Assembly (NCBI GenBank): GCA_963707865.1
Contig: OY970175.1
Location: 489,493-553,492 of the forward strand
DNA from: an uncultured bacterium
GTDB taxonomy: Bacteria; Patescibacteriota; Minisyncoccia; UBA6257; 2-01-FULL-56-20
Length of the DNA stretch: 64,000 nt
Reading direction: 5' to 3'
Position numbers and translations under genes: made by a program. The notes below the pieces were generated by a model. That model was not told the DNA's origin, did not search any database, and saw only the letters and a program-made list of their open reading frames with translations. The first letter of the stretch is position 1. Each line of letters starts with the position of its first letter. Positions 19,413-56,629 of this stretch are shown here, piece after piece.

Positions 19413-19440
19413 GGTTCTCACGTCGTCCAGCCGCCGGAGC
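19413..19440 (+). repeat. 28-bp tRNA-3-prime-like repeat, copy R1 (outlier)
   Basis: ggttctcacgtcgtccagccgccggagc. Confidence 0.8.
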
Positions 19441-19478
19441 GAGAAAAGCAAGATTATCTTTTATATGAGAAAGGTCCC

Positions 19479-20387
19479 CTAATGTTGATTGAGTTTTATC
19501 TGAAGTTGCTGAATCTGTAGAAGTAGGGCAGCTATTTGGGACTGAAGTTGTGTTTTCAAAACGAGATCCTCCACAACACACGATGTCTTATTTTGATTCC
19601 ATTCGTAACCGCTCTGACACCCACAATTTAGCTGACCATCGCTAGTCTTTGTACCGTCCCAATTGCTGTTTGACCCATAGGTATCCTGGCACGCCTGATC
19701 ATTTGTTTTTGTTGGCACCGCCGTACAACCATCCTTTGCTAAATTGGCTTGAAAACCGCTGTCGCATTGGCATTTGGTTAGATCGGTGGGCGAAGCGTGA
19801 GAGTTAATGGGGCAATTGCTTGAGTTAGTCGAATATGCGGGAGGATAGTAGTAATTGGTTGTCTTGTAGGTGCAACTTGAGCCATCAAATTCATAGCCAA
19901 TCATGCATTCACACTGTTTAGACAGACTATTATATTGAGACATTAACCCCAACTTACTGGAACAATAACTATTGCCGCTTACACACTGCCCTGAAGCACC
20001 TATTACGTAACCGTAATTACACTTACAAGAAGAGATACCGTCATAATATGAATTTAGTGGACACGAAGGCGTGGTCGGATACGAATAGTCATAACTATTG
20101 TAGGTCGGAGAATAGCTACCACCCGATGACTGACCATAATAGTTATTTAGATACGTATCTGGATTCCCTCCGGTTATCTTCCCAGTGTTGGGATTATAAT
20201 TTCCGGGAAAGCTGTAATTGTTATACGGATTACTATCTGGAGCTGTACGTTCATAGCCATTAACGTAGGTACCGTTACTGCGAAAATAACCGTTTACATA
20301 GACGGCGCTGGCCTGAAAAGCTGTGAGGCCGACACTGATGATTGCAATAGCGCTTGCTAAGACAAGCAACCGCCTGCTAGAAGTCAT
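19479..20387 (-). CDS. Secreted Cys/Tyr/Asn-rich protein with C-terminal coiled coil
   Basis: Signal peptide MTSSRRLLVLASAIAIISVGLTAFQASA. More than 20 Cys. No recognisable family. Confidence 0.5.
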   Translation of the reverse strand: MTSSRRLLVLASAIAIISVGLTAFQASAVYVNGYFRSNGTYVNGYERTAPDSNPYNNYSFPGNYNPNTGKITGGNPDTYLNNYYGQSSGGSYSPTYNSYDYSYPTTPSCPLNSYYDGISSCKCNYGYVIGASGQCVSGNSYCSSKLGLMSQYNSLSKQCECMIGYEFDGSSCTYKTTNYYYPPAYSTNSSNCPINSHASPTDLTKCQCDSGFQANLAKDGCTAVPTKTNDQACQDTYGSNSNWDGTKTSDGQLNCGCQSGYEWNQNKTSCVVEDLVLKTQLQSQIAALLLQIQQLQIKLNQH

Positions 20388-20460
20388 ATTTAAAGTCTAC
20401 TCTCCCTATTTCCAGGCGTCCCTTTCCCGTACCCAAAAAAGGAAATAGAACTTTTGATCT

Positions 20461-21960
20461 TTACTCTATGACGGGAATATTCCGTCCCTGAAGTTTATAG
20501 CATAGCGCCATATACTTCCGGGCTGAATTCTTCCAGGAGAAATCTTGCGCCATGGCACGTTCCACCAATCTTGCCCATTCGCGCTTGTTTTGATAGCTTT
20601 CATGCGCGCGGACCATGGTGATCATAAGTGCCTGCGGATCAAACTTTTCAAATACAAATCCGGTTCCTTTACTGTGATGAGGATCAAAATCAATGACGGT
20701 ATCGGCGAGGCCGCCCGTTTTACGCACAATGGGGATCGCTCCGTACCGCATAGCCTCAAGCTGCACGAGGCCGGCGGGCTCAAAACGCGACGGCATAAGG
20801 ATCGCGTCGGCTCCAGCATAGATAGCCCGCGGCAATTTTTCGTCATATTCCAGATAAGTGCCAACGCGCCCAGGATAATCTTCTTCAAGTTTCTTGAAGA
20901 ATTTTTTGTATTCCGTAGCGCCGTCGCCCAGTAGCACGAATTGAAATACAAGATTATCGAGCAGCGGCCGCATGATGTCTTCGAGGAGCGATAATCCCTT
21001 TTGTTCGTCGAGCCGCCCATTGTATCCGATCACCATCGCATCCTTCTCCTCGCGGAGGCCGAAATGCTGCTGAAGGATTATTTTGTTCTTCGCGCGGGCG
21101 TCGACGTGATGTACGTTGTAATGAACGGCGATCAGAGGGTCGGTGGCGGGATCAAAGCGTTCGTCATCGATGCCGTTCAAGATACCCACAAGACTTCCCC
21201 GTCGTTCTTGAAGCACTCCCTCTAAATTTTCTCCGTATTCGGGAGAGAGAATCTCCCGCGCATAGGTCGGGGAGACAGTCACAATCTCGTCAGCATAGAG
21301 TATCCCCCGCCGCATTCCGTTCAGGTATTTCATATCCGAGAAGAACGGCGGAATCGGCTCGCGGCCGAAATCGGCGTCCATCTCCGACACGAATGCGGCA
21401 TCGAACGTTCCTTGATTGCGGAGATTATGGATGCAGAAAATGACGCCGATCCCTTTGAGCGCCGGATTGTCCTTATGTTCCGTCTTCATGAGATTCGGCA
21501 CGAATCCGGCCATCCAGTCGTTCGCAATGATAAAATCCGGCTTCCATTTAGACCGTTTTACGAACTCAAGCACGGCGCGGGAGAGGAGCACCCAGCGCAT
21601 CGTGTCATCTGTGTAGTCGTAGACGTTCGCGCGCTTTTCGAAGCACTCCATGTTTTCCAGAAAATAGGTCACGCTCTTATCCTTCCCGACATGTTCCAAG
21701 ACGTTTGAGACGAGGAGGCCATGTGGGTCTTCCTCCTTGGACGCGACACGCATATGCTCCACGACAAGCTTCATCGGGAATTCTTCCGCGTCGACGATGC
21801 CATATTTGGGAAGGAATACGCGTGCATCGCAGCCGAGCTTGCGCATGGCTCTCGGCAAAGCGCGGAGTACTTCGCCCAATCCCCCTACTTTCGCGAAGGG
21901 CGCCGCCTCAGTACTCACAAAAAGAACCCGCAAGGGCTTCTGCACAAAAGGGATCTTCAT
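20461..21960 (-). CDS. glgA: Glycogen/starch synthase (GT5, GlgA-like)
   Basis: N-terminal KVGGLGEV motif and GT-B fold. About 500 aa. Confidence 0.75.
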   Translation of the reverse strand: MKIPFVQKPLRVLFVSTEAAPFAKVGGLGEVLRALPRAMRKLGCDARVFLPKYGIVDAEEFPMKLVVEHMRVASKEEDPHGLLVSNVLEHVGKDKSVTYFLENMECFEKRANVYDYTDDTMRWVLLSRAVLEFVKRSKWKPDFIIANDWMAGFVPNLMKTEHKDNPALKGIGVIFCIHNLRNQGTFDAAFVSEMDADFGREPIPPFFSDMKYLNGMRRGILYADEIVTVSPTYAREILSPEYGENLEGVLQERRGSLVGILNGIDDERFDPATDPLIAVHYNVHHVDARAKNKIILQQHFGLREEKDAMVIGYNGRLDEQKGLSLLEDIMRPLLDNLVFQFVLLGDGATEYKKFFKKLEEDYPGRVGTYLEYDEKLPRAIYAGADAILMPSRFEPAGLVQLEAMRYGAIPIVRKTGGLADTVIDFDPHHSKGTGFVFEKFDPQALMITMVRAHESYQNKREWARLVERAMAQDFSWKNSARKYMALCYKLQGRNIPVIE

Positions 21961-22040
21961 ACTCTATAGTATAACCCTTCCGAGAATCGAACCGAAATTT
22001 GAAATAAAAATAGATTCTACGGGGATAAATCAAAGCGGCG
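21961..22040 (-). other. Conserved ~60-nt element with tRNA T-arm-like segment immediately upstream of glgA
   Basis: Minus-strand sequence ccgctttgatttatccccgtagaatctatttttatttcaaatttcggttcgattctcgg is ~80% identical to the element at 33861-33945 upstream of arsR. Confidence 0.4.
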
Positions 22041-22055
22041 ATATTCCCTGCGCAG

Positions 22056-33516: not shown

Positions 33517-33517
33517 G

Positions 33518-43276: not shown

Positions 43277-43285
43277 TCCCAAACA

Positions 43286-44938: not shown

Positions 44939-44958
44939 TGTCGTTCAGCCGCCGGAGC
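44931..44958 (+). repeat. 28-bp repeat, copy R10 (overlaps stop codon of iminopeptidase)
   Basis: ggttctaatgtcgttcagccgccggagc. Confidence 0.75.
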
Positions 44959-45325
44959 GGATAGTTTTGAGAAATGGGCTTACATCGCAAACCCCCTGCC
45001 CAGGTCGAACATGGGGCAGAGGGTTTGGATATAAATATGATTAAGTTATAAGGTGTTGGTAAGATGGCGGGAAAGCGATAACGAAGCGCTAAGAACAACG
45101 AGGGGTTCTCCGAAGCCGTGGCGTTCATTTACCCGGCTTTGCTTAAGAACCTTGCTTGACCGAATCGGCCAGATTAGTTGTTCAGCGAGCTTTCCCACGA
45201 TCGCTCATAGCATGAAGTTGTTGTCTTTTGTTTTATTTTTAGGACCTTTGGTTGCTCCACCCGGCTCCATGGCGCCGGCATACCTATTACTACTTACTAC
45301 AACGGCCCGGCGCGTTTCTTTCACC

Positions 45326-46566: not shown

Positions 46567-46627
46567 TCATGCATAGACACCCGCTCTTAATACTACAACC
46601 AAACCCCTGTTTTGTTTCACCACGTGC

Positions 46628-46654
46628 GGTTCTCCCGTCGTCCAGCCGCCGAGC
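46628..46654 (+). repeat. 28-bp repeat, copy R11 (1-nt deletion)
   Basis: ggttctcccgtcgtccagccgccgagc. Confidence 0.7.
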
Positions 46655-46665
46655 CGTTAATTTCA

Positions 46666-47460
46666 CTACTGTTCCATAAACCCAACCGTAGCGGGAATAT
46701 CCCCCTTAAATGACACTTGGTCGCCGGCTCCGATGTGAGCCGACTCGCTTTTGATTCCTGCTTCATCCAAACGGTTCTGCGCAAAATCCAAAATCACTTT
46801 TTGATTATCGGTGAAAACGCTCACTGGCACCGGTAGCCGGCCTATTTCCAGCTTCTGCAGTCCACCACTTATTTCCCCGTTCGCCACATCCACACTCCCT
46901 TTAATATAAATAGGCGGGTTGGGGGCAAAGACGCTTACCTTATCCAGCCAAAATTTGACATCATTCATACTGATACCAGTTGCGGCGGCATAGCCGTAGA
47001 TCCTGTCGGTGCGCAATATTCCGGAAAGTTCCGCCGTTCCGTCAGAATTGAAACGAACTTGCGCATCGGAAATCGGATAGTATTTCCACATTTTTTCCTG
47101 CAGAGCCATCAATGCCGTCAACTCTTTATCGGTAAATGTTGCGTCTATCGCCTTGCTTCCCGTCAATGAATACGTTGCGATTGACCCGGTCGGCAATGAC
47201 ATGTAGCGAATGCCTGTTTTTGCCTGGATTGACCCGCTATCCCCGGAATCGGGCACAACACCCAAATCCCTGGGCTTATCGGACCCGAAAATTTTGGATA
47301 CTCCCGGCACGAATCCTAGATAACCTAGCACCAACACGAGAACCACCAAAACGGTGATTACTGCATAAAGTAATTTTTTTGCTATCCCTCCTCTCCGGGA
47401 TGTTACCGCCAATTGTTCATTCATGGTGCGAGAGTGAATACTATTTTTGCCCTTGCTCAT
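46666..47460 (-). CDS. Membrane-anchored hypothetical protein
   Basis: Start moved to MSKGKN. The ORF-track N-terminus MKHAPAAGRYES is simply the reverse translation of repeat R12. TM helix LLYAVITVLVVLVLVLGYLGF. Confidence 0.45.
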   Translation of the reverse strand: MSKGKNSIHSRTMNEQLAVTSRRGGIAKKLLYAVITVLVVLVLVLGYLGFVPGVSKIFGSDKPRDLGVVPDSGDSGSIQAKTGIRYMSLPTGSIATYSLTGSKAIDATFTDKELTALMALQEKMWKYYPISDAQVRFNSDGTAELSGILRTDRIYGYAAATGISMNDVKFWLDKVSVFAPNPPIYIKGSVDVANGEISGGLQKLEIGRLPVPVSVFTDNQKVILDFAQNRLDEAGIKSESAHIGAGDQVSFKGDIPATVGFMEQ

Positions 47461-47474
47461 AGTATACCACCTTG

Positions 47475-47502
47475 GGCTCTCATATCGTCCAGCCGCCGGA
47501 GC
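47475..47502 (+). repeat. 28-bp repeat, copy R12
   Basis: gggctctcatatcgtccagccgccggagc, directly abutting the IS481-family element. Confidence 0.75.
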
Positions 47503-48505
47503 ATGTTTCATGTCCGTACATTTGTCCCCTCGATAGATTGAAGATATTCGACCGGCGTCTTTCCGGCAAGGGCAAGGTGAGGACAGATGGTATTGTACCA
47601 GGCACAGTAAGCGGCCTGTTTTTGTTTTGCCTCGGCCACGGTGCGGAACGCCACCTTGTTCCAGAACCGTTCCCGGTCGTTGCGGTGGGAACGTTCCACC
47701 TTGCCGTTCTGCGCGGGATGCCCGGGAGCGATGAGATAGTGGACCATCTTCTGTTTTGCGCAGGCGAGGTCGAACGGATGCAACCGCGGCTTCATGGGGT
47801 CAGCTGATTTCGGATATCCTATGTAGCGATTCGTAAAGATGGATCCGTTGTCGGTCTTCACCGCACGGATGCGGAACGGTGCGGCCGCAATGACCCTTTC
47901 GAGAAACAGGATCGCGGTTCTCGTGGATTGTTCCTGGGTTACCCACAGATGCCGCCACCGGGTGCAGCAGTCGATCGCGGTGAACTGGTAGAGCCAGTTG
48001 CCCTTGAATTTCCTCACGTAGACGACGTCGATCTCCACCATCTCGCCGGGGAACGTGGCCGTCGGTTTCCACTTTTCCTTGGGCGTGAGACGCTTCTTCG
48101 TACGCGAGAGGCCTTCACGCTTCAATACTTTTGCAATGCCGCGTGCCGAGAGCCGCATGCCTTCGCGGGCGAGGAGGTGTACGAGCACGTCCGGACCGAG
48201 ATCGGTCTCCGTTCTCATAGTCCGGATCTTTTTCACGATATCTCGCGAAAACTGTTTTGGGTGTGCGTGCGGCCTGCGCGATCTGGGCACGAGGGCGCTC
48301 GCCCCGCCACTGCGATATGCCGCCACCCAACGCTTCAGCGTACGGTATGAAAATGGTGCGTGGGCAGCAATGGCCTTGATGCTCATCTCTTTTTCAAGAT
48401 GCGGCCTGATCCACCGCATTCGTTCCTCCGCTGCGTCTTTGGCAAGTGTTTGTGGCATATTCCCCAGCTTACGCTTCGAGGGGCCATATGTATGTGCAGA
48501 GTACC
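47495..48505 (-). mobile_element. IS481-family insertion sequence (distinct from the 57.4/63.1 kb copies)
   Basis: Carries the 316-aa DDE transposase. Imperfect terminal inverted repeats of the type TGTCCGTACAT / ATGTATGTGCA. Exact ends are uncertain. Confidence 0.5.
47508..48458 (-). CDS. IS481-family DDE transposase
   Basis: N-terminal HTH, integrase catalytic core with DNGSIFTN...NGKVERSH. Confidence 0.85.
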   Translation of the reverse strand: MPQTLAKDAAEERMRWIRPHLEKEMSIKAIAAHAPFSYRTLKRWVAAYRSGGASALVPRSRRPHAHPKQFSRDIVKKIRTMRTETDLGPDVLVHLLAREGMRLSARGIAKVLKREGLSRTKKRLTPKEKWKPTATFPGEMVEIDVVYVRKFKGNWLYQFTAIDCCTRWRHLWVTQEQSTRTAILFLERVIAAAPFRIRAVKTDNGSIFTNRYIGYPKSADPMKPRLHPFDLACAKQKMVHYLIAPGHPAQNGKVERSHRNDRERFWNKVAFRTVAEAKQKQAAYCAWYNTICPHLALAGKTPVEYLQSIEGTNVRT

Positions 48506-48616
48506 AGCACTAATTGACGGATTAACGGCCTTGTGCTACAACACTAAATCACGGGATCGTGGCGGCGAGGACGCCTGATTCATCAAAAAAGAGTCTTTCT
48601 ATAATACAATAACGAC

Positions 48617-50452
48617 ATGTGCGGAATCGTTGGCTATATCGGAGATAGAGATGCCCTGCCCATTCTTATGGATGGCATCAAAAAGTTGGAGTATCGAGGA
48701 TACGATTCCGCCGGGATCGCGATCCTTTCAGAGAGCGGTGTACGAACGGCCAAAGCAGTGGGCCGCGTGTCAAACCTTGAGGCAAAAATAAAAAACGGAG
48801 ATTTTTCTGGCAGATCCGGGATCGTCCATTCGCGCTGGGCGACGCACGGTGGAGCGACGGAAAAGAACGCGCATCCTCATGCGGACTGCAACGAACTATT
48901 ATGGATCGTCCACAACGGCATCATAGAAAACCACAAAGAGCTGAGGGCGCACCTTATAAAATCAGGACATGTCTTCCGCTCCGAGACGGACACGGAGGTG
49001 CTCGCGCACCTGATCGAAGAAAAGCGCAAAGGGAAAACAATCCCGCTTGAAGAGGCGGTGAGCGAGGCACTCAAGGAGATCCGTGGAACCTACGGCATCG
49101 TGGTCCTCGATGTCCAAGATAAGAACAAACTTGTCGCGGCGCGCAATTTTAGTCCCCTTCTTGTTGGTCTCGGCAAAAATGAATACTTCGTGGCTTCCGA
49201 CGCCTCGCCTATCATTCGGCATACAAGGGACGTGGTATATCTACAGAACGGGGAGATGGCGATCCTCGAGCGGAACGGCTATCGGATCGTAACGCTCGAC
49301 AATCAAAGCGTAAACCGCCCTGCTTCAGTCATAGAATGGAGCACGGAAGAGGCGGAAAAGGGCGGTTATCCTCATTTCATGCTGAAAGAGATCATGGAAC
49401 AGCCTGAGGCGATCCAAAACTCGCTTCGCGGCAGGCTGGTCGCGGATCAGGGCCTTGCGAAGCTCGGCGGGTTGGACAGTGTAGTCGAACGCGTTCGCGA
49501 GATCCGGCGGCTGTTCATCGTCGGATGCGGGACGGCCTATTTCGCGGGACGAGTGGGCGAATACATGCTTGAAGAATACGCGGGAGTCCCCGTCAAAACC
49601 GATATTGCTTCCGAATTCCGCTATCGCAAACCCGTTTTCCGCGAAGGAGACGCCTTGCTAGTCCTTTCCCAATCGGGAGAAACCGCCGACACGCTTGCGG
49701 CCCTCGGCGAAGCGAAACGAAAGGGCGTGCTCACGCTTGGGATCGTGAACGCCGTCGGTTCGACGATCACTCGGGAAACGGATGCGGGCATCTATCAGCA
49801 CATTGGCCCCGAGATCGGGGTTGCCTCCACCAAGGCATTCACTTCCCAAGTCTCCCTCCTTGCCCTGCTCACGGTCTTCATGGGACGCCAGCGGGAAATG
49901 TCCCTCGCAACGGGCAAGCGCATCGTTGAGGAACTTGCCCTGATCCCGGAAAAAATAGCGCGCATCCTCTCGCAGCGGGACCGCATCAAAGAGATCGCAA
50001 AACGACACGTGGGAGCGCGGAATTTTTTCTATCTGGGACGGAAATACAATCTTCCCGTCGCGCTCGAAGGCGCTCTGAAAATAAAGGAGATCTCGTACGT
50101 GCATGCGGAAGGCTGTGGCTCTGGCGAACTGAAGCACGGCCCCATTGCGCTCATCGAGCCGGGATTCCCTTCGGTATACATCGTGCCGCACGATTCCGTA
50201 CGTGATAAGAACCTTTCGAACCTGCAGGAGATCCGGGCCCGGGGCGGGACGATACTCGCCGTCGCGACGGAAGGAGACAAAGAAATTGAAGAGTTTGCGG
50301 AGGATGTTATCTATATACCGAAAACGCTTGAAATGCTCACTCCGATCCTCGCGGTAGTTCCTTTGCAACTACTCGCCTACGAGTCGGGAGTCGCTCGGGG
50401 ACACGACGTAGACAAGCCCCGGAATTTGGCGAAGAGTGTGACTGTCGAGTGA
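48617..50452 (+). CDS. glmS: Glutamine--fructose-6-phosphate aminotransferase
   Basis: N-terminal MCGIVGYIG (Ntn Cys). Two SIS domains. C-terminal ...KSVTVE. Confidence 0.9.
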   Translation: MCGIVGYIGDRDALPILMDGIKKLEYRGYDSAGIAILSESGVRTAKAVGRVSNLEAKIKNGDFSGRSGIVHSRWATHGGATEKNAHPHADCNELLWIVHNGIIENHKELRAHLIKSGHVFRSETDTEVLAHLIEEKRKGKTIPLEEAVSEALKEIRGTYGIVVLDVQDKNKLVAARNFSPLLVGLGKNEYFVASDASPIIRHTRDVVYLQNGEMAILERNGYRIVTLDNQSVNRPASVIEWSTEEAEKGGYPHFMLKEIMEQPEAIQNSLRGRLVADQGLAKLGGLDSVVERVREIRRLFIVGCGTAYFAGRVGEYMLEEYAGVPVKTDIASEFRYRKPVFREGDALLVLSQSGETADTLAALGEAKRKGVLTLGIVNAVGSTITRETDAGIYQHIGPEIGVASTKAFTSQVSLLALLTVFMGRQREMSLATGKRIVEELALIPEKIARILSQRDRIKEIAKRHVGARNFFYLGRKYNLPVALEGALKIKEISYVHAEGCGSGELKHGPIALIEPGFPSVYIVPHDSVRDKNLSNLQEIRARGGTILAVATEGDKEIEEFAEDVIYIPKTLEMLTPILAVVPLQLLAYESGVARGHDVDKPRNLAKSVTVE

Positions 50453-50457
50453 GTTAA

Positions 50458-50862
50458 TTGGAGCTTAGTTCGAGCATCGGCGCCGGAGCGGATATTGTAA
50501 TAGTTTGGAAAATAGCTCAGAATGAATTTATGAAAACCTCCCCTCGAACCGTCGGATTCGTTCAGGCTGCCGGTTTGACATTATACGTGAGTCTTTTCGC
50601 CGTGTTCATCCAGCAAGCGCAAAGTTGGTTCTTATTTCACGGCGTTCAAGCTAGTCCTGCTATGAGCATCGTCCTTTTCCTGCTCGCCTTTGTCATCTCG
50701 GCGCTCATCTGTGGCTCGCTGATCCTGGGCTACCCGCTTCTGCTTTTCTCTTCCGGCCAGCACAACGAGGCGATGAAAATCGTTCTCTGGAGTCTCCTTT
50801 GGCTCGTCGTCCTAGCCCTCTGCATCGCGCTTATTGGTTTCTCTTTCCTGTCGAGGTTCTAA
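50458..50862 (+). CDS. Small membrane protein (4 TM)
   Basis: A hydrophobic 134-aa ORF. Its stop codon lies within repeat R13. Confidence 0.45.
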   Translation: MELSSSIGAGADIVIVWKIAQNEFMKTSPRTVGFVQAAGLTLYVSLFAVFIQQAQSWFLFHGVQASPAMSIVLFLLAFVISALICGSLILGYPLLLFSSGQHNEAMKIVLWSLLWLVVLALCIALIGFSFLSRF

Positions 50863-50882
50863 CGTCCTCCAGCCGCCGGAGC
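50855..50882 (+). repeat. 28-bp repeat, copy R13
   Basis: ggttctaacgtcctccagccgccggagc. Confidence 0.8.
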
Positions 50883-50909
50883 GGAGAAAAAAAGTAGCCG
50901 CGGGAAACA

Positions 50910-51479
50910 TCATTTCGCAGCTACTCGAGCCATACGCAGCCACTTTCCGATCAGTGACTGCTGTTCATTGTCCGGTGGCGGTCCCAGGCGACTTCGAAAC
51001 TTCTTGCCAGGTCCTTGCAGAGTCCAACTCACCGACTCCGCAAAGTCCCCGGCGCCAAAGAGGTAATCCGGACAAGTCCTGCTCAACGACGGCGGATACC
51101 AAGGCGTATCCGGTGGCAACTTGCGAAGTGTAAGCCACTCGCGCCGCATCTCGGCAGTAAGGAATTGTATATCAAAGCTGTGTGCAAGCTCATGAACAAT
51201 CGTCGCAGCCACAACTTCCGGCGACTGTGAGGGACGAATCCAGATATCAATAGTACGTCGCTTGGGATCACAAAGACCAAGGAGATTGGGCCGCCCTTGG
51301 TAGAATTTAATTTTCCACTCAGGAAGTATGGGCCACCAATCCCAATTTACTTTCTTCAGGGCTTCCTGGCCCACGTGTTCATAACGAAGAGCTGATGGGG
51401 GTTTCTGAAAATTTGTTTGGGCAAACGACGATATCGTCGCTATACCCACAAGAAGCATAAGCAGGACTGGACGCTTCAT
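50910..51479 (-). CDS. Secreted HExxH zinc-metallopeptidase-like protein (paralog of 35745-36317)
   Basis: MKRPVLLMLLVGIATISSFAQ...IVHELAHSFD. The whole repeat-to-repeat cassette is duplicated. Confidence 0.6.
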   Translation of the reverse strand: MKRPVLLMLLVGIATISSFAQTNFQKPPSALRYEHVGQEALKKVNWDWWPILPEWKIKFYQGRPNLLGLCDPKRRTIDIWIRPSQSPEVVAATIVHELAHSFDIQFLTAEMRREWLTLRKLPPDTPWYPPSLSRTCPDYLFGAGDFAESVSWTLQGPGKKFRSRLGPPPDNEQQSLIGKWLRMARVAAK

Positions 51480-51566
51480 CGTTGGCCTCCTCTAGTGAAT
51501 TCGTTTCCAAGACCTATCTTCCTTGTAGCTCGCTATTGATTAACTCGTCAAGGGATAAAGTAAGCA

Positions 51567-51594
51567 GGTTCTCACATCGTCCAGCCGCCGGAGC
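51567..51594 (+). repeat. 28-bp repeat, copy R14
   Basis: ggttctcacatcgtccagccgccggagc, consensus copy. Confidence 0.85.
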
Positions 51595-51652
51595 ATATGT
51601 GCTATAATGAGCGTCAAGGTCGAAAAGATAATTTTCGAAAGTAAATACTATT

Positions 51653-51847
51653 ATGAAAGCACTTGCTTGCAGGGATATGGGTGTAGATTGCGATTTTGTT
51701 GCCAAAGCCGATACCGCAGAAGAGACAGTGAAAATGGCAACGGATCATGCACTGAAGGCTCATGCGGAAAAGATTGCCGAGATGTCAAAAACGATGTCTC
51801 AAGATGAAATGACAAAGGTAATGATGTCCAAGGTAAAGGATGTGTAA
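51653..51847 (+). CDS. DUF1059 small metal-binding protein
   Basis: MKALACRDMGVDCDFVAKADTAEETVKMATDHALKAH is the characteristic DUF1059 pattern. Confidence 0.6.
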   Translation: MKALACRDMGVDCDFVAKADTAEETVKMATDHALKAHAEKIAEMSKTMSQDEMTKVMMSKVKDV

Positions 51848-51851
51848 ATAA

Positions 51852-51883
51852 AAACCGCCGGAATCCCCCGGCGGTTTTTTTAA
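51852..51883 (+). terminator. Rho-independent terminator
   Basis: aaaccgccggaatcccccggcgg followed by ttttttt. Confidence 0.65.
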
Positions 51884-51916
51884 TTCTTTTAGATTGATGT
51901 TCGTCAACCTCGCCCA

Positions 51917-51944
51917 GGCTCCCACATCGTCCAGCCGCCGGAGC
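51917..51944 (+). repeat. 28-bp repeat, copy R15
   Basis: ggctcccacatcgtccagccgccggagc. Confidence 0.75.
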
Positions 51945-51970
51945 CACGATCGTGGTGGTACAATTAATCC

Positions 51971-52864
51971 GTGAACAAGTCACCACTTAATTGGAGGAGG
52001 GTGTCTTTGGCCTCGGTGGGAGGAACACTCGTGGTCATGGCAATACTCTTCGGAGCATACCGCTACTCAAAACTCGAGCAACAGAAAACTGCTCTTGAAC
52101 AAAGCGTCGCGGTGCTGCAAACAGAAGTTGCGGGACTTGAACAATCACTTACGACGAGCCGCACAACGCTCAATGAGACCATTCAAACATTGCAGGCGGA
52201 GCAAAATAGAAACAATGCCTTCTCATCCCAAATCAACCAACTTTCGGGAACGGTGACAACCCTGCAAAGATTGACCGCAACAGACCCACAGCTTCTTGAA
52301 AAATACTCCAAGGTCTACTTTTTGAATGATAACTACGTACCCGCTTCGCTCTCGGCCATTGACTCCCAATACCTCTTTGACAAGAACAGGCCGGAACTTG
52401 TCCTCGGGGGAGTGCTGCCGTATCTCCAAGGACTTCTTGCAGCGGCCGCGCGCGATGGCGTCACACTGCAGATCGTCTCGGCGTACCGCTCCTTCTATGA
52501 ACAAGCATCCTTGAAATTGGGCTACAAGATCGTATATGGAGCGGGAACGGCAAACCAGTTCTCGGCCGAACAAGGTTATTCCGAGCACCAGCTGGGCACG
52601 GCGGTGGACTTCTCCACTCCAGAGGTCAAAAACACCTTTTTGGACTTCGCGACGTCGACCGCATACCGATGGCTCACGGATAACGCGTATCGATATGGAT
52701 TCATCCTTTCCTATCCGCCGAACAATACCTATTATCAATTTGAACCATGGCACTGGCGCTTTGTGGGCGTTACGCTCGCGACCATGCTCCATGTGAACAA
52801 TGAATACTTCTACAACTTGAGCCAGCGCGACATCAATCAGTATCTCATTTCATTTTTTGACTAG
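51971..52864 (+). CDS. M15B-family D-Ala-D-Ala carboxypeptidase (VanY-like) with N-terminal TM and coiled coil
   Basis: LAS metallopeptidase motifs ...YSEHQLGTAVDF... and ...EPWHW.... Confidence 0.65.
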   Translation: MNKSPLNWRRVSLASVGGTLVVMAILFGAYRYSKLEQQKTALEQSVAVLQTEVAGLEQSLTTSRTTLNETIQTLQAEQNRNNAFSSQINQLSGTVTTLQRLTATDPQLLEKYSKVYFLNDNYVPASLSAIDSQYLFDKNRPELVLGGVLPYLQGLLAAAARDGVTLQIVSAYRSFYEQASLKLGYKIVYGAGTANQFSAEQGYSEHQLGTAVDFSTPEVKNTFLDFATSTAYRWLTDNAYRYGFILSYPPNNTYYQFEPWHWRFVGVTLATMLHVNNEYFYNLSQRDINQYLISFFD

Positions 52865-52968
52865 AACCCATCTCAAAAATAGACACATGAGGATTATGAA
52901 CTATTTTCCAGCGAGAAACGTGAATCCCGACGAAGGAATACCTTCTCACGGGAATACAATATGAGGAT

Positions 52969-53493
52969 ATGAATAGAAAAATTATCTTGTTGATCGCTCT
53001 CGCTGTCGTCGTCATCTCAGGAGGGGCGTATTGGTATCTTACCCAAACCGAACCGGTGCGTACGGCATGCACCCAGGAAGCAAAACTGTGTCCTGATGGG
53101 AGTTACGTAGCGCGACAGGGTCCGAATTGCGAGTTCGCCGCATGCCCCGGCGTATCATCCACCGCAACGTCCGCGAAACCCATGGGAAGCGGCATCCACG
53201 GCACGGTAATGCTTGGGCCAACCTGCCCGGTGGAACGCATCCCTCCGGATCCGAACTGCGCCGATAAACCTTACCAAACGCTCGTTGCGATTTTCCGCGC
53301 GAGCGATCCAGTGCATGCCGTCGTAATCACGGAGAGCGATGCGAGTGGAACTTTCTCGGCATCTCTACCGCCAGGCGAATACCTAATAGGCGCGGGTGAA
53401 AGTAATTTACCGCGCTGCAACCAGGTCCAGATTGCGGTTCCAGAGAACAGTTACACCTCAACGACCATATCGTGCGACACGGGTATACGATAG
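52969..53493 (+). CDS. Secreted hypothetical protein
   Basis: Signal/TM MNRKIILLIALAVVVISGGAYWYL. Cys-containing. No family recognised. Confidence 0.45.
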   Translation: MNRKIILLIALAVVVISGGAYWYLTQTEPVRTACTQEAKLCPDGSYVARQGPNCEFAACPGVSSTATSAKPMGSGIHGTVMLGPTCPVERIPPDPNCADKPYQTLVAIFRASDPVHAVVITESDASGTFSASLPPGEYLIGAGESNLPRCNQVQIAVPENSYTSTTISCDTGIR

Positions 53494-53505
53494 GGCCTGC
53501 ACGCA

Positions 53506-54771
53506 CTATCTCCTCCACCTGGCATTACCAAATTGGCGCGAGCCGGAAGGTGATCGCCGTGGAGGGCCGGAGCGCGGGCTTGAGCGCGAACCCGAGTGCG
53601 GACGGCCGAAACGAGAATGAAATGGTTGGCGGTCCGAAGGCGCAATTGCGCGCACAGGGGGAAGCTCGGGAAGTTTTGAAAGGGGCAGCGTGGAACGGAT
53701 AAGGTGTTCAATGGCGCGCACGTCGCCTTTTTGGTCCGGAGTGGCGAAGGAAATTGCATGCCCCGCGCCGCCTGCGCGCGCCGTGCGGCCGATGCGGTGA
53801 ACGTAATCTTCCGAACTCTGCGGAAGGTCGTAATTCAAAACAAGCTCTATCCCCTGCACGTCAATGCCGCGCGCCGCGATATCGGTTGCGACAAGCACGC
53901 GATACTTGCCGTTTCGAAATCCCTCAAGCGCTTCTTTGCGCTGACCGAGCGAGCGGTTGGCATGCAGTTCCGCAGACGCATAACCCAAGCTGCGTATTCC
54001 CGCCGCGATCTTTTTCGCTCCGTGCTTCGTACGGGAAAATACGAGGACTGAACCGCGATATTCCCCCAGTATTTTTTCCAAGAGTCGCGGCTTGTTGTGC
54101 TTCTCTACAAAGAAAAGCTCTTGGGTAACTTTCTCCACGGTCGTGCCGGACGGCGCGATCTCAACGCGCGTGGGAAGCTTCAAATACACTTGCGCTATCT
54201 TAAGAATGTCGGATGGCATGGTGGCCGAGAAAAGCATCGTCTGCCGCTCGCGGGGAAGAACGGCGAGAATGCGCTTCAATTGCGGCATAAACCCCATGTC
54301 AAGCATCCGATCCGCTTCATCAAGAACAAGAATGCCGACCGATTTCAAGGAGATCGTCTTCTGCTCCAAGTGATCAATGAGCCGCCCCGGCGTGCCGATC
54401 ACGATCTGCGGGTTCCTGCGAAGCGCCTGGATCTGGCGGCCGATGGATTCACCGCCGATCAAAACCGCGGTCCGGATGCCGAGGGGGGTGCCCACCCGGC
54501 GGAACACGTCGTCCACCTGCAACGCGAGCTCACGCGTGGGCACGATGACAAGCTCCTGTTTTCCGCCGAGCGCCGCTTGTATCATGGGCACGCCGAAGGC
54601 AAGCGTTTTCCCCGTTCCCGTCTGTGCGATGCCAATAAGGTCCTTTCCTTCGATAGCCGAAGGGATGCATTTTTCCTGAATGGGCGTGGGAACCGCAAAA
54701 CGAAACTTATCCAACACCTCCAATATGTTCGGAGCGATCCCGAGATTATAAAAGCCAGACGGAGAACCCAT
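53506..54771 (-). CDS. DEAD-box ATP-dependent RNA helicase
   Basis: Q motif, AQTGTGKT, DEAD, SAT, and HRIGRTARAG, with an Arg/Ser-rich C-terminal tail. Confidence 0.85.
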   Translation of the reverse strand: MGSPSGFYNLGIAPNILEVLDKFRFAVPTPIQEKCIPSAIEGKDLIGIAQTGTGKTLAFGVPMIQAALGGKQELVIVPTRELALQVDDVFRRVGTPLGIRTAVLIGGESIGRQIQALRRNPQIVIGTPGRLIDHLEQKTISLKSVGILVLDEADRMLDMGFMPQLKRILAVLPRERQTMLFSATMPSDILKIAQVYLKLPTRVEIAPSGTTVEKVTQELFFVEKHNKPRLLEKILGEYRGSVLVFSRTKHGAKKIAAGIRSLGYASAELHANRSLGQRKEALEGFRNGKYRVLVATDIAARGIDVQGIELVLNYDLPQSSEDYVHRIGRTARAGGAGHAISFATPDQKGDVRAIEHLIRSTLPLSKLPELPPVRAIAPSDRQPFHSRFGRPHSGSRSSPRSGPPRRSPSGSRQFGNARWRR

Positions 54772-54774
54772 TAG

Positions 54775-55170
54775 TTAGTCCACGTTCAACCTCTCGTATA
54801 TTTCACCGGCCAATTTTCTGAACAGTGCCCGTTTTCTCCAGAAAAAGTTGTTCTCGGAAAACTCTTGATTCCGGATCCGACTTAGGTCCCGGACGTTCAT
54901 GTAGCGCGCATGTCCAAGATCCTTATTGGTTTTTATATCAGTATCCTCCAGCCCTTGATAAATTTGCCGCAGATAACCATATTTGGTCGGGATATTGAGC
55001 TCGCGGCTGATCTTCGTGCGGTACGTGAGGCCGTCTGAAAAGGCCGGATTCAGCTCAATATATTCAATAAAACCGTGGATAGCCTCAAAGAGGCCGAATC
55101 CCTCGGGCGCTTGTAAAACCTTTTGAAATTTCTTATCCAGATCAAGTTTTGTCTTTTTAAGGAGTTTCAT
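54775..55170 (-). CDS. Hypothetical protein
   Basis: A 131-aa ORF with no recognisable motif. Confidence 0.4.
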   Translation of the reverse strand: MKLLKKTKLDLDKKFQKVLQAPEGFGLFEAIHGFIEYIELNPAFSDGLTYRTKISRELNIPTKYGYLRQIYQGLEDTDIKTNKDLGHARYMNVRDLSRIRNQEFSENNFFWRKRALFRKLAGEIYERLNVD

Positions 55171-55285
55171 GCTGGTATATGAATACTAACACGTTCCGGA
55201 TCAAAAAGCCACCGGGGTCTCCTCCGCGGCAGATCGCTCTGCTGCGGAGCTTCTTTCCACCTTCTAAGATTGATACAATCAAACC

Positions 55286-55843
55286 ATGGTTGACGAAAGG
55301 GTTCTAGTCATTCCGGGGGCGTTCCAGCTTGTGAAGAACTATGGCGGCTTTGATGGTATTGATATTTGGGTTGCGGACAACGTTCGGAAGAAAATGAAGT
55401 GCCCGACCTTTGTGGTAGCGCACAGTGCCGGGGCAAATTTTGCCCTCACCGCACAGGATTTTTCCAACTGTAAATTCATACTGATAAATCCACTCATAAA
55501 GAAGAGAGGCTTCGCCAACCTCGTGATACGAGACATCCGATACCTGCTCTCCAAAGAGATTGCAATGGAAAAGATCGTACCACCTCATAATTGGTGGTAT
55601 GCACTCAAGAAGGCATATCGATTATCAAAGATAGACGTGCTCGCATGCATCAAGAAAATACCGCGAGAAAATATCGTAATAATAAGAGGAGCAAGGGATA
55701 TTTTTTTCTGCGAAGAGGAATCGGCTGAAATTATCAAAAACGAGAACCTACGGCTCCTCACGGCGGATGCTGGTCATGACTGGAATGAAAATATCGCGAA
55801 TTTGGTCAAAGAAATCGTGAACGCCGGAGAAGATAAAAAGTAA
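55286..55843 (+). CDS. Small alpha/beta-hydrolase-fold serine hydrolase
   Basis: Nucleophile elbow VVAHSAGAN (GxSxG-like) and a C-terminal GHDWN. About 185 aa. Confidence 0.45.
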   Translation: MVDERVLVIPGAFQLVKNYGGFDGIDIWVADNVRKKMKCPTFVVAHSAGANFALTAQDFSNCKFILINPLIKKRGFANLVIRDIRYLLSKEIAMEKIVPPHNWWYALKKAYRLSKIDVLACIKKIPRENIVIIRGARDIFFCEEESAEIIKNENLRLLTADAGHDWNENIANLVKEIVNAGEDKK

Positions 55844-55868
55844 GGATAGCGTGATAAACTAATCTCAA

Positions 55869-56576
55869 TCAAGCCGCCTTGTTCTGCGGATAAATCTTTT
55901 GTCTCACGAGATCGATAAGCTCCTTGGACGGCTGACCGGTCGTAAAATCAATCTTATCGGAAGGAATAACGATAAAATATCCTTTGACGTCGGCGCCAAA
56001 GCTTCTCAGCTTCGTTTTGAACGAGCGGAGGTCGCTGTCAAAAAGCTTTCTGGTTTTCCCGTCCTGAGAGATTTCCACGGGGGCTGGCCCAACCTCGTCC
56101 GTTTCAAAAATGCCGAATGATTCATGAGCGGATCCTTTCACCTGCACTGCATGCTTGGCATCACTCCATAGATCTATTTTTTTGAACGCGTCATCTCTTG
56201 GATGGGAAAATCGTGGCTGAAACCCAAGTTCCTTGAATATCTTATGGGTAGCAACCTGTGTGACGATCCCCCTTTGGAACATATTGAAGTTCTGTTCTTC
56301 TTTCTGGAGCCTCGCCTTCTCCCGCAACCGGCTCCATAGCTCTTTCAATGCAGGAGCGTTCTCCATTTGTGAGGCGACATAGTGCGTTACAAGAAATTGA
56401 TATTCGGTAACATCCTTATATGCCGCGAGAAGCTCTTCTTCGTCTTCTATCTCTTCCATTTTCAATTTTCGCTTGGTCTCTAAGAACGCCGGAAACGAAG
56501 ATATAACCGCAGTCCTTTCTGTAGCTTCTGGAGAGGTTTCCGTTGGTGCGGCAGAAACGGACTTCTCACTAATCAT
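55869..56576 (-). CDS. Hypothetical protein
   Basis: A 235-aa ORF with an acidic N-terminal region. No motif recognised. Confidence 0.4.
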   Translation of the reverse strand: MISEKSVSAAPTETSPEATERTAVISSFPAFLETKRKLKMEEIEDEEELLAAYKDVTEYQFLVTHYVASQMENAPALKELWSRLREKARLQKEEQNFNMFQRGIVTQVATHKIFKELGFQPRFSHPRDDAFKKIDLWSDAKHAVQVKGSAHESFGIFETDEVGPAPVEISQDGKTRKLFDSDLRSFKTKLRSFGADVKGYFIVIPSDKIDFTTGQPSKELIDLVRQKIYPQNKAA

Positions 56577-56601
56577 GTTTATAAGTATACCCCATCAAAC
56601 A

Positions 56602-56629
56602 GGTCCCCACGTCCTCCAGCCGCCAGAGC
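56602..56629 (+). repeat. 28-bp repeat, copy R16 (degenerate)
   Basis: ggtccccacgtcctccagccgccagagc. Confidence 0.65.

What the first reader, a model, noticed from the sequence alone, without database searches (positions are those of the whole stretch)
19413..56629. Array of 16 same-orientation 28-bp repeats partitioning 22 kb into single-gene cassettes
The consensus aGGTTCTCACaTCGTCCAGCCGCCGGAGCa recurs at 19413, 34404, 35690, 36405, 37823, 38229, 39640, 42690, 43286, 44931, 46628, 47475, 50855, 51567, 51917 and 56602. All copies are on the + strand. Spacings are irregular, from 0.35 to 4.7 kb. Almost every interval holds one gene, occasionally two, of either orientation. Each interval has its own promoter and terminator, for example TTGACA-17-AATAGT at 34490 and terminators at 43251 and 51852. 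Repeats sit in intergenic DNA or just clip a stop codon. Cargo is accessory-like: a GalT-like enzyme, HExxH peptidases, an aspartase/fumarase-family lyase, a giant deacetylase adhesin, proline iminopeptidase, an ECF sigma/anti-sigma pair, DUF1059, and small membrane proteins. Constant repeat orientation that is independent of gene orientation points to a DNA-level site (recombination/att) rather than an RNA-level signal. It is not a CRISPR array, because the spacers are far too long and irregular. The architecture is integron-like or tandem-integrative-element-like. No integrase or recombinase gene is present in the window.
Basis: seen in the sequence. Interest (0 to 1): 0.9.

Follow-up and report, generated by a model that had tools for sequence, protein, structure and literature searches.

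The report
Serine-recombinase cassette array behind tRNA-Asn
The 28-base repeat is real and is most likely the docking half-site of a large serine recombinase. It marks a variable, integron-like stack of small gene cassettes inserted behind the tRNA-Asn gene of a candidate-phyla-radiation (Patescibacteria-like) bacterium, and I found no published description of such a platform.

Summary
There are 16 copies of GGTTCTCACATCGTCCAGCCGCCGGAGC, all on the + strand, where chance predicts none. The block is two loci, not one. A mini-array lies behind tRNA-Glu (18.1-19.4 kb). The main array starts at the 3' end of an intron-containing tRNA-Asn(GUU) at 31432-31714 and runs to 56629. About 12 kb of core metabolic genes separate the two.

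The last ~15 nt of the repeat copy the tRNA-Asn 3' end. The same repeat forms same-orientation arrays behind tRNA-Asn in at least four other genome lineages, with different cargo. Junction pairs share a left flank or a right flank, never both. One cassette recurs in three contexts, bounded by repeats each time.

The reverse complement of the repeat encodes the C-terminus (LRRLDDVRT) of a large serine recombinase on contig L007. A 94%-identical enzyme instead overlaps a real tRNA-Asn. Relics of that gene end follow the tRNA and several repeats.

It is not an integron: no IntI, no attC hairpin, and genes face both ways. It is not REP-like or CRISPR. Its logic is closest to SCCmec. No serine recombinase lies in the window, and current activity is inferred, not shown.

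The parts
31432..31714 (+). tRNA-Asn(GUU) gene. Exons are 31432-31465 and 31676-31714, with a group I intron at 31466-31675 (position 35/36). Its 3' end is the anchor (primary attachment site) of the main array.
   Evidence: ARAGORN with the intron option finds it but miscalls it tRNA-Thr(tgt) i(33,210). The exons are identical to the intronless tRNA-Asn of L001. Rfam Intron_gpI matches 31451-31668 with E=0.0015. PMC13011429 describes exactly this intron position and this ARAGORN miscall in Patescibacteria.
31715..31760 (+). Right flank of tRNA-Asn (ACCTAGTAAAAGTATCGGACAGACCGGG...). It is a relic of the 3' coding end of a serine recombinase gene (P' arm), which makes this junction look like attL.
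   Evidence: The motif recurs after the repeats at 37823 and 43286 and in other loci. tblastn of recombinases P0013 and P0015 (aa 517-552) matches 31761-31678 with E about 0.01. In L009 the same motif lies inside a 120-aa recombinase relic, E=7e-6.
33938..33994 (+). Degenerate junction (..GTGTCGGAGC, ending at 33965) followed by a P'-type relic (TATCAGACAGACCGGA). It separates the ars-like operon unit from the next cassette.
34414..34441 (+). 28-mer copy
35690..35717 (+). 28-mer copy (perfect)
36405..36432 (+). 28-mer copy. Both flanks weakly match a recombinase C-terminus.
   Evidence: tblastn of P0021 aa 516-558 matches 36470-36339 with E=0.022.
37823..37850 (+). 28-mer copy, followed by a P' relic at 37851-37895
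38228..38255 (+). 28-mer copy (4 mismatches)
39640..39667 (+). 28-mer copy (5 mismatches); its right flank resembles the recombinase coding end
42690..42717 (+). 28-mer copy
43286..43313 (+). 28-mer copy (perfect), followed by a P' relic at 43314-43370
44931..44958 (+). 28-mer copy (4 mismatches); overlaps the stop codon of the hydrolase gene
46628..46655 (+). 28-mer copy with an altered 3' end (..GCCGCCGAGCC)
47475..47502 (+). 28-mer copy; the end of an IS481-family element abuts it
50855..50882 (+). 28-mer copy
51567..51594 (+). 28-mer copy (perfect)
51917..51944 (+). 28-mer copy
56602..56629 (+). Last 28-mer copy (5 mismatches); distal end of the main array
31715..56629 (.). Main cassette array: 16 units of 350-4685 bp with GC 41-55%. 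Most hold one or two genes, in either orientation. Cargo includes an ars-like operon, a GalT-like enzyme, two zincin-like paralogues, a Lyase_1 enzyme, a 969-aa deacetylase/Ig protein, an alpha/beta hydrolase, an ECF sigma/anti-sigma pair, GlmS, VanY and a DEAD helicase.
35718..36432 (.). Zincin-like cassette, copy 1. Its homology to copy 2 and to L052 stops at the bounding repeats.
   Evidence: (D4, D9)
50883..51594. Zincin-like cassette, copy 2 (90% nt identity to copy 1 over the two stretches matched; 81% aa)
37851..38255. Small membrane-protein cassette. It is 80% identical to L004 5777-6172 (blastn), where its neighbours are different.
18031..18103 (+). tRNA-Glu(UUC), anchor of a second, small array
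18311..18353 (+). Duplicate of the tRNA-Glu 3' end (18311-18331), then 8 nt, then the last 14 nt of the repeat (GCAGCCGCCGGAGC)
19413..19440 (+). 28-mer copy that closes a 1.1-kb, low-GC (44%) cassette carrying an NYN-domain gene behind tRNA-Glu

Best explanation
The 28-mer is the conserved left half-site of the attachment site of a Patescibacteria family of large serine recombinases (LSRs), and it carries the crossover near its 3' end. These enzymes insert DNA at the 3' end of tRNA genes, here tRNA-Asn. In the recombinase-bearing elements the site lies inside the last codons of the recombinase gene, read antisense. The last ~15 nt of the 28-mer (TCCAGCCGCCGGAGC) copy the T-stem and acceptor end of tRNA-Asn, and that is where strands are exchanged.

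Repeated site-specific insertions next to the tRNA stacked up units, each carrying a 28-mer at its distal end. The result is: tRNA | unit | 28-mer | unit | 28-mer, and so on, all in the tRNA's orientation. Most units now lack a recombinase. They are one- or two-gene cassettes that were inserted, duplicated or deleted by recombination at the 28-mers, using an enzyme supplied in trans.

Shown: the tRNA anchor, the localisation, the recombinant junctions, the coding overlap with the recombinase, and the recombinase relics.

Inferred: that this LSR family is the acting enzyme, the position of the crossover, the order of insertion, and that recombinase-less cassettes move in trans.
For: 1. tRNA anchor. 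In the window and in L001, L005/L013, L006/L018, L020 and L042, the repeats lie downstream of a tRNA-Asn(GTT) gene and in its orientation. The repeat matches the tRNA 3' end at 21 of 28 positions, and the last 9 nt are identical.

2. Localised and variable.
- Only 5 stretches in 185,579 species genomes and 17 in the metagenome collection carry the repeat, always as clusters or single sites.
- Window 30942-31471, upstream of the tRNA, is syntenic with L001 at 72%, while nothing downstream is shared.
- Cassette GC runs from 41 to 55%, against 52-54% in the flanks.

3. Recombinant junctions.
- Among 59 distinct junctions, 15 pairs share a left or a right flank, and none share both.
- The zincin-like cassette occurs twice in the window and once in L052. 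It is bounded by repeats each time, and its right neighbours differ.
- A second cassette is shared with L004, where the neighbours differ.

4. Recombinase link.
- L007 1267-2955 is an LSR with Resolvase, Recombinase and Zn_ribbon_recom domains. Its codons ..MLRRLDDVRT.. are the reverse complement of the 28-mer.
- P0001, 94% identical to it, has its 3' end overlapping a real tRNA-Asn in L028. The two loci share the right flank and diverge within TCCA(G/A)CCGCCGGAGC.
- C-terminal fragments of near-identical enzymes carry many different tails, all starting right after ..SQSML. This places the junction at the 3' end of the 28-mer.
- Of 120 homologues, 60 end in an antisense T-loop peptide ([DE]S[ND]) and 11 end in the 28-mer-type peptide.
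- In L042 an intact LSR sits inside such an array. The order is tRNA-Asn, two genes, a 28-mer-like site inside the LSR 3' end, a 7.6-kb element, then a 28-mer-like site followed by a copy of the tRNA's downstream flank, which is an attR signature (F1 against F2: 0 of 2000 shuffles reach the score).
- Relics of the LSR 3' end flank array repeats in L009 (E=7e-6) and follow the window's tRNA-Asn.

5. Coding imprint. The three variable positions (7, 10, 13) are third-codon positions in the recombinase frame. They give V/V, D/D and D/E (read against the frame).
Against: - No serine recombinase gene lies in the window, and I could not check the rest of the source genome.
- Only one full-length LSR gene (L007) carries the canonical 28-mer. 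Other LSRs carry variants.
- Canonical LSRs recombine attP with attB only. Repeated insertion next to an already occupied tRNA, or 28-mer by 28-mer exchange, needs relaxed directionality, which is untested.
- The right half-sites are not conserved at about half of the junctions.
- Arrays of the same population recovered from different samples have the same order (L004/L009/L010/L017/L022, L003/L021, L012/L020), so no ongoing turnover was seen.
- Zincin homologues at 49-55% identity in three other genomes are not flanked by repeats.
- The longer units carry housekeeping-type genes (glmS, a DEAD helicase), which is unusual for mobile cassettes.
- The codon-phase argument rests on three positions (chance about 1 in 9).
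Confidence: 0.65

Rival explanations
1. Passive graveyard. Each repeat is only the scar (attR) of a complete recombinase-bearing element that once integrated at tRNA-Asn. The recombinase and mobility genes were then lost by ordinary deletion. The sites are no longer used, and cassettes never move on their own.
For: Recombinase 3'-end relics occur beside the tRNA and several repeats. L042 shows a full element inside an array. Arrays from different samples are identical in order. No recombinase lies in the window.
Against: The 28-mers are almost invariant in 48 distinct copies, while the adjacent relics have decayed strongly. About half of the junctions go cleanly from the 28-mer into unrelated DNA, which random deletions would rarely produce. 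A recombinase-less 0.7-kb cassette recurs three times with homology ending at the repeats.
Confidence: 0.22
2. The site is used by a different enzyme, such as a tyrosine integrase that targets the tRNA-Asn 3' end. The overlap with the serine recombinase gene exists only because those elements also sit at tRNA-Asn.
For: By established knowledge, tRNA 3' ends with a shared identity core are the classic targets of tyrosine integrases. The repeat and the tRNA share a 9-15 nt identical core.
Against: No tyrosine recombinase gene was found in the window or among the 25 most frequent Pfam families shown for 87 ORFs from the related loci (25 of 78 families are listed, so a weak hit could be hidden). 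The 28-mer is part of the recombinase reading frame, with synonymous-type variation. Near-identical recombinase genes switch tails exactly at the site, as expected if their own product cuts there.
Confidence: 0.08
3. A true integron or a cluster of attC sites lacking an integrase (CALIN): IntI-type tyrosine recombinase acting on folded attC sites.
For: Same-orientation repeats separate mostly single-gene units.
Against: There is no IntI. The repeat is 28-33 nt long, with no conserved hairpin; the consensus fold is -1.3 kcal/mol with no covariation. There are no R''/R' boxes. Genes face both ways, and at least one cassette has a promoter-like site. The array starts at a tRNA gene, not at attI.
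Confidence: 0.02
4. A REP-like dispersed intergenic repeat or an RNA-level signal, for example a tRNA-like processing or termination element.
For: The repeat is tRNA-derived and mostly intergenic.
Against: It is confined to regions behind tRNA genes: none in window 1-18,300 or 56,630-64,000, and only two adjacent loci in a 535-kb contig. Its orientation ignores gene orientation. It has no conserved structure. The T-arm cannot form. Homology breakpoints fall at the repeat.
Confidence: 0.03

Closest known systems
Staphylococcal cassette chromosome (SCCmec and related SCC / pseudo-SCC arrays) with CcrAB/CcrC large serine recombinases
   Same: A large serine recombinase is involved. Insertion is at the 3' end of one conserved gene. 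Tandem composite arrays form, with every unit bounded by short direct repeats in one orientation. Many units lack a recombinase and depend on one supplied in trans. Among NCBIfam models the best hits for the L007 enzyme are CcrB, XisF, CcrC and CcrA.
   Different: The anchor is a tRNA gene, not rlmH. Units are mostly 0.35-4.7 kb with one or two genes, rather than tens of kb. The site lies inside the recombinase's own C-terminal codons. The enzyme is far below the Ccr family cut-offs (95 bits against 900). The host is a candidate-phyla-radiation bacterium.
Integrons (IntI, attI, attC cassette arrays; sedentary chromosomal integrons)
   Same: A long array of mostly single-gene cassettes is separated by a same-orientation recombination site next to a fixed primary site. 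Cargo is variable between relatives.
   Different: The enzyme class differs (serine, not tyrosine). There is no folded attC. Cassette genes face both directions, and at least one has a promoter-like site. The primary site is a tRNA 3' end. No recombinase gene sits at the head of the array in the window.
tRNA-anchored genomic islands with repeated tRNA 3'-end fragments (for example Prochlorococcus hypervariable islands; tandem integrative elements). From my own knowledge, not checked in the library.
   Same: A hypervariable region lies downstream of a tRNA gene, punctuated by direct repeats derived from the tRNA 3' end.
   Different: Those are attributed to tyrosine integrases of phages or islands, with few repeats and large units. 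Here there are 16 or more closely spaced, highly conserved sites tied to a serine recombinase.
Serine-integrase prophages and elements (phiC31, Bxb1, A118, SPbeta SprA)
   Same: Same domain architecture. The nearest solved structures are SPbeta YokA/SprA and the A118 integrase. The enzyme gene sits at the element's edge next to its site.
   Different: As far as I know, those enzymes mostly target protein-coding genes, with attP and attB sharing little sequence. Here tRNA 3' ends are targeted, attP mimics the tRNA end, and attP lies within the recombinase ORF.

Membership tests
Integron / CALIN | IntI-type tyrosine recombinase next to attI | tested here: not met
   Pfam scans of essentially all window ORFs found no Phage_integrase domain. 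They found only IS481-type rve transposases.
Integron / CALIN | attC sites: 55-140 nt imperfect inverted repeats (R''-L''...L'-R') that fold as single strands | tested here: not met
   The conserved unit is 28-33 nt. The consensus fold of 16 junctions is -1.3 kcal/mol with 4 weak pairs and no covariation.
Integron / CALIN | Mostly promoterless cassettes co-oriented with a platform promoter | tested here: not met
   About half of the genes are on each strand. At least some cassettes carry promoter-like sites, e.g. 34489-34517.
SCC-like serine-recombinase cassette array | Units inserted at the 3' end of one conserved gene and each bounded by direct repeats of the integration site | tested here: met
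   The tRNA-Asn anchor is seen in six loci or locus pairs, with same-orientation repeats. L042 shows an attR-type duplication of the tRNA flank.
SCC-like serine-recombinase cassette array | Cognate large serine recombinase encoded by some units | tested here: inconclusive
   There is none in the window. One is present in the related array L042 (P0020) and on L007 with the canonical 28-mer in its coding end. Relics occur in L009 and beside the window's tRNA-Asn.
SCC-like serine-recombinase cassette array | The recombinase belongs to the Ccr families | tested here: not met
   CcrB model 94.9 bits against a cut-off of 900. CcrC 65.5 against 900. CcrA 47 against 700.
Large serine recombinase att site | The recombinase cuts and rejoins at this sequence (central dinucleotide flanked by half-sites) | not testable with these tools
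   Indirect evidence only. Near-identical recombinase genes switch downstream sequence exactly at the 3' end of the 28-mer.
REP/BIME-type dispersed repeat | Hundreds of copies spread over the genome's intergenic regions, usually palindromic | tested here: not met
   Copies are clustered behind tRNA genes only, and there is no palindrome.
CRISPR array | Regular 25-50 nt spacers between repeats | tested here: not met
   Spacings are 350-4685 bp and contain genes.
tRNA gene with group I intron at 35/36 (Patescibacteria tRNA-Asn) | Intron between anticodon positions 35 and 36; exons give a canonical tRNA-Asn(GUU) | tested here: met
   The exons equal the intronless L001 tRNA-Asn. Rfam RF00028 matches with E=0.0015, below the gathering score. 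The ARAGORN miscall is the one reported in PMC13011429.

The most novel reading that the evidence does not exclude
A serine-recombinase counterpart of the integron. In this reading, Patescibacteria keep a dedicated gene-capture platform at tRNA-Asn (and sometimes other tRNAs). A large serine recombinase, whose own last codons form the attachment site, inserts, excises and shuffles recombinase-less one-gene cassettes marked by a 28-nt half-site. This would supply accessory metabolism and surface functions to very small genomes and move them between lineages.
Probability: 0.4. Interest if true: 0.9.

Novelty: new variant of a known kind. Interest (0 to 1): 0.78.

Why it matters
Candidate-phyla-radiation bacteria have tiny genomes, and little is known about how they acquire genes. 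If this reading is right, it defines a compact and easily recognised gene-acquisition hotspot: tRNA-Asn followed by a 28-nt site. It also defines a large, uncharacterised family of serine recombinases that target tRNA 3' ends and carry their attachment site inside their own coding sequence (6671 homologues at E<=1e-10 among the 8000 candidates scored). Three consequences follow. It gives a direct way to mine accessory genes of these organisms. It offers an independent evolutionary route to integron-like cassette arrays. It provides new serine integrases with defined natural sites for genome engineering.

Tried and rejected
- **attC-like structure.** The consensus fold of 16 junctions shows no conserved hairpin.
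- **IS end.** The repeat is not the inverted repeat of the IS481-like elements. Their ends are GCACACACATATGGCGGAC-type, and IS-A merely abuts copy 47475.
- **Circular cassette.** L023, a 1306-bp unitig of the GalT cassette with identical 30-nt ends, is explained by a 30-mer repeated at 34390 and 35666, so it is not evidence of a circle.
- **Viral origin.** No viral contig carries the 28-mer. Twelve hits to a 19-nt core are chance matches, eight of them in contigs of 61-70% GC; none has an adjacent tRNA-Asn or recombinase.
- **Terminal attR in the window.** The flank after the last repeat (56630 onward) is not significantly similar to the L042 tRNA flank (425 and 825 of 1000 shuffles reach the score).
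- **Motif 2 as host flank.** I first read the TATCGGACAGACCGAG motif as the native downstream flank of the tRNA. I rejected that in favour of a recombinase 3'-coding relic.
- **Zincin-like homologues elsewhere.** Three contexts at 49-55% identity have no repeats and no tRNA, so that gene family also exists outside cassettes.
- **Recombinase pseudogenes in the window.** Only tail-sized matches at the tRNA and at 36405 were found.
- **Rfam.** A gathering-threshold scan of the window found only two tRNAs.
- **Literature.** Searches found no description of such arrays.
- **Source genome.** The source contig (898,885 bp) could not be retrieved, so its recombinase content is unknown.

Full report
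**1. Observation**

The consensus GGTTCTCACATCGTCCAGCCGCCGGAGC occurs 11 times with up to 3 mismatches, and no shuffle gave any match. The 15-nt core gives 16 hits against 0.18 expected.

A profile built from 48 distinct copies in the window and related loci extends the unit to about 33 nt: aaACA-GGTTCT[C/A]AC[A/G]TC[G/C]TCCAGCCGCCGGAGC. Only three positions vary freely. Flanks are otherwise unrelated, and there is no conserved secondary structure.

**2.

At 31432-31714 (+) lies a tRNA gene split by a 210-nt group I intron.
- Rfam RF00028 matches it with E=0.0015, below the family's gathering score.
- ARAGORN with the intron option calls it tRNA-Thr(tgt).
- Its exons are identical to the intronless tRNA-Asn(GTT) of locus L001.
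- PMC13011429 reports exactly this arrangement for Patescibacteria: tRNA-Asn with a self-splicing intron at position 35/36, miscalled tRNA-Thr by ARAGORN.

The tRNA's 3' end, GGTTCCAGGTTCGAGTCCTGGCGCCGGAGC, matches the repeat at 21 of 28 positions, and the last 9 nt are identical. The tRNA-Asn of L028 matches the last 15 nt of the repeat at 14 of 15 positions.

All copies from 34414 to 56602 lie downstream of this tRNA and in its orientation. A degenerate junction ending at 33965 subdivides the first interval.

The copy at 19413 belongs to a different, small locus. Its order is:
- tRNA-Glu (18031-18103);
- a duplicate of the tRNA-Glu 3' end plus the last 14 nt of the repeat (18311-18353);
- a 1.1-kb, 44%-GC cassette with an NYN-domain gene;
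- the 28-mer at 19413.

The 12 kb between 19441 and the tRNA-Asn encode glycogen synthase, transketolase, ribulose-phosphate epimerase, RpiB, GAPDH and pseudopilins. That is core genome, not a cassette.

**3. Distribution**

An exact-pattern scan of one genome for each of 185,579 species found the repeat in only five stretches: two Minisyncoccia MAGs (arrays of 4-8 copies) and single copies in contigs binned as Ratteibacteria and Omnitrophota. The metagenome scan gave 17 stretches from peat, sediment and groundwater, again as same-orientation arrays or single sites. The phylum assignments of the two single-copy contigs rest on MAG binning and were not verified.

Wherever the locus reaches far enough, a tRNA-Asn(GTT) lies upstream in the same orientation. 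This holds for L001, L005/L013, L006/L018, L020 (intron-containing) and L042. In the 535-kb contig of MAG SPRUCE 393 only two loci carry the pattern, and both also fall on one 65-kb metagenome contig. The repeat is therefore not a genome-wide REP-like element.

The gene upstream of the tRNA is conserved between the window and L001 (72% nt, 71.5% aa). Nothing downstream of the tRNA is shared apart from the repeats.

**4. The repeat is a recombination joint**

- Among 59 non-redundant junctions, 15 pairs share a similar left flank or a similar right flank, and none shares both.
- The 0.7-kb zincin-like cassette occurs at 35718-36432 and at 50883-51594 (90% nt identity). Homology starts at one repeat and ends at the next.
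- A third copy lies on an unrelated metagenome contig, L052 (80% nt). It is again bounded by repeats, and a different cassette follows it.
- The small membrane-protein cassette at 37851-38255 recurs in L004 with other neighbours.
- Cassette GC ranges from 41 to 55%, while the surrounding core DNA is 52-54%.

**5. The enzyme**

The window has no tyrosine or serine recombinase. It has three IS481-family DDE transposase genes, and their inverted repeats are unrelated to the 28-mer.

On contig L007 the 28-mer lies inside the last codons of a 562-aa large serine recombinase with Resolvase, Recombinase and Zn-ribbon domains. The reverse complement of the 28-mer reads L-R-R-L-D-D-V-R-T.

A 94%-identical enzyme, P0001 on L028, instead runs antisense into a genuine tRNA-Asn. 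The two loci are identical to the right of the site (ATTGATTGAGATCG.GCAAGAG) and diverge within TCCA(G/A)CCGCCGGAGC.

Short C-terminal fragments of near-identical enzymes carry at least eight unrelated tails, all beginning right after ..ARSQSML. This places the exchange point at the 3' end of the 28-mer (GGAGC).

The family is very large: 6671 homologues at E<=1e-10 among the 8000 candidates scored. Where a source names them, they are Patescibacteria, Minisyncoccia or Jorgensenbacteria. Of the best 120, 60 end in a [DE]S[ND] peptide, which is the antisense translation of a tRNA T-loop. Another 11 end in the 28-mer-type peptide. This enzyme family therefore habitually sits at tRNA 3' ends with its own reading frame crossing the site.

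Elements carrying such enzymes encode Replic_Relax, TrwB/FtsK-like, PDDEXK, HU or small-terminase-like proteins.

**6. Recombinase inside an array, and relics**

In L042 the order is:
- tRNA-Asn;
- two genes;
- a 28-mer-like site inside the 3' end of an intact recombinase (P0020);
- a 7.6-kb element;
- a second 28-mer-like site followed by a copy of the tRNA's downstream flank.

The last feature is the signature of attR. The flank similarity was reached by 0 of 2000 shuffles.

In L009 a repeat is flanked by a 120-aa relic of the recombinase C-terminus (E=7e-6). This relic contains the motif TATCGGRSAGACCGAG.

In the window the same motif follows tRNA-Asn (31727) and the repeats at 37823 and 43286, and in degenerate form the junction at 33965. 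It also matches recombinase C-termini weakly (E about 0.01). The window's tRNA-Asn junction therefore looks like an old attL, and several internal junctions look like attP-type sites whose recombinase gene has been lost.

The three variable positions of the 28-mer (7, 10, 13) are third-codon positions in the recombinase frame, giving Val/Val, Asp/Asp and Asp/Glu. This suggests the left part of the site evolves under coding constraint in the recombinase genes. The tRNA-matching right part is invariant even at third positions. This argument rests on only three positions.

**7. Mechanism proposed**

The 28-mer is the left half-site of the recombinase's attachment site, with the crossover at its 3' end. 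Circular elements or cassettes carrying such a site recombine with the tRNA-Asn 3' end, and probably with existing junctions. Each event adds a unit whose distal end carries a 28-mer and keeps the tRNA intact. Repetition gives: tRNA | unit | 28-mer | unit | 28-mer, and so on.

Clean junctions without recombinase relics, and the repeat-bounded duplicate cassettes, argue that recombinase-less units are also moved or deleted by site-specific exchange in trans.

Four things are inferred rather than shown: the enzyme-site assignment, the exact crossover, relaxed directionality, and current activity. Canonical serine integrases only recombine attP with attB, and I saw no array polymorphism between samples of the same population. 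The main rival is therefore a passive record of serial integrations followed by decay.

**8. Comparison with known systems**

The array fails all three integron tests: no IntI, no attC structure, and no co-oriented promoterless cassettes.

Its logic is closest to staphylococcal SCC arrays. Those also use a large serine recombinase, insert at the 3' end of a conserved gene, form tandem units bounded by direct repeats, and include many units without a recombinase. CcrB is the best NCBIfam hit for the L007 enzyme, but at 95 bits against a cut-off of 900, so the enzyme is not a Ccr. The nearest solved structures are SPbeta SprA/YokA and the A118 integrase.

The array also resembles tRNA-anchored hypervariable islands with repeated tRNA 3' ends. 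That comparison is from my own knowledge.

The combination found here was not in the literature I could search: a serine recombinase, a tRNA anchor, a site embedded in the enzyme's own coding end, dense one- or two-gene cassettes, and a candidate-phyla-radiation host.

**9. Verdict**

The repeat array is real and non-random. It is best read as a serine-recombinase attachment-site array that forms a variable cassette island behind tRNA-Asn, with a small second one behind tRNA-Glu. I rate it a new variant of a known kind and of high interest. The enzyme assignment and present-day mobility still need to be demonstrated.

Noticed in passing
window 8704-11174: A diversity-generating retroelement. 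The reverse transcriptase gene is at 8837-10024 (-). The template repeat is 8704-8852 and the variable repeat is 10422-10570, at the 3' end of the target gene 10434-11174 (-). The two repeats are 88% identical, and all 18 mismatches fall at adenines of the template copy. They are in inverted orientation.
   Followed up: partly
window 31466-31675: A group I intron at position 35/36 of tRNA-Asn(GUU). [quoted passage not shown] This matches the recently described Patescibacteria introns (PMC13011429). The related locus L020 has one too, while L001 has the intronless allele.
   Followed up: yes
window 57394-58395 and 63096-64000; also 47503-48560: Two 100%-identical, inverted copies of an IS481-family element bracket 4.7 kb, which is composite-transposon-like. 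The second copy runs off the window. A third, about 76%-similar IS481-family element is inserted directly against repeat copy 47475, next to glmS.
   Followed up: partly
window 17960-18353: The tRNA-Glu locus is complex. Sequences flanking the tRNA are G+C-rich and partly inverted. An antisense T-arm fragment lies near 18175-18195. A direct duplicate of the tRNA 3' end (18311-18331) is fused to the last 14 nt of the 28-mer. Read antisense, this gives a recombinase-like tail (LRRLQNFRSPTGE), which suggests an old insertion at tRNA-Glu.
   Followed up: partly
P0001-P0120, P0166-P0181; loci L024-L029, L042-L045: This is a very large Patescibacteria family of large serine recombinases whose reading frames end inside tRNA genes on the opposite strand. 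Half of the best 120 end in a DSN/ESN peptide, which is the antisense T-loop. Near-identical enzymes carry many different tails that start at the same residue, so the enzyme's C-terminus changes with each integration.
   Followed up: partly
window 5232-6129: A HepT-like RNase and a MNT/Pol-beta nucleotidyltransferase form a toxin-antitoxin pair on the - strand.
   Followed up: no
window 2748-5192 and 72-1785: These are long secreted proteins with internal DNA tandem repeats. Units of 111-153 nt lie between 4033 and 4847, and two ~930-nt-spaced LamG-type repeats lie between 202 and 1724. Such proteins are typical of candidate-phyla-radiation surface proteins.
   Followed up: no
window 51595-51944: A 350-bp, 44%-GC unit lies between two repeats. 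It has no convincing gene. It contains a strong terminator hairpin (51850-51879) and a TGCTATAAT promoter-like box just after the left repeat. It may be an empty or decayed cassette.
   Followed up: no
L003 1058-1085 / L021 4748-4775: Here a repeat copy is fused directly to the recombinase-relic motif (GTCCAGCAGACCGAGG). This fits a deletion between the two similar direct 9-mers ATCGTCCAG (in the repeat) and ATCGGACAG (in the relic), which lie 31 nt apart.
   Followed up: no
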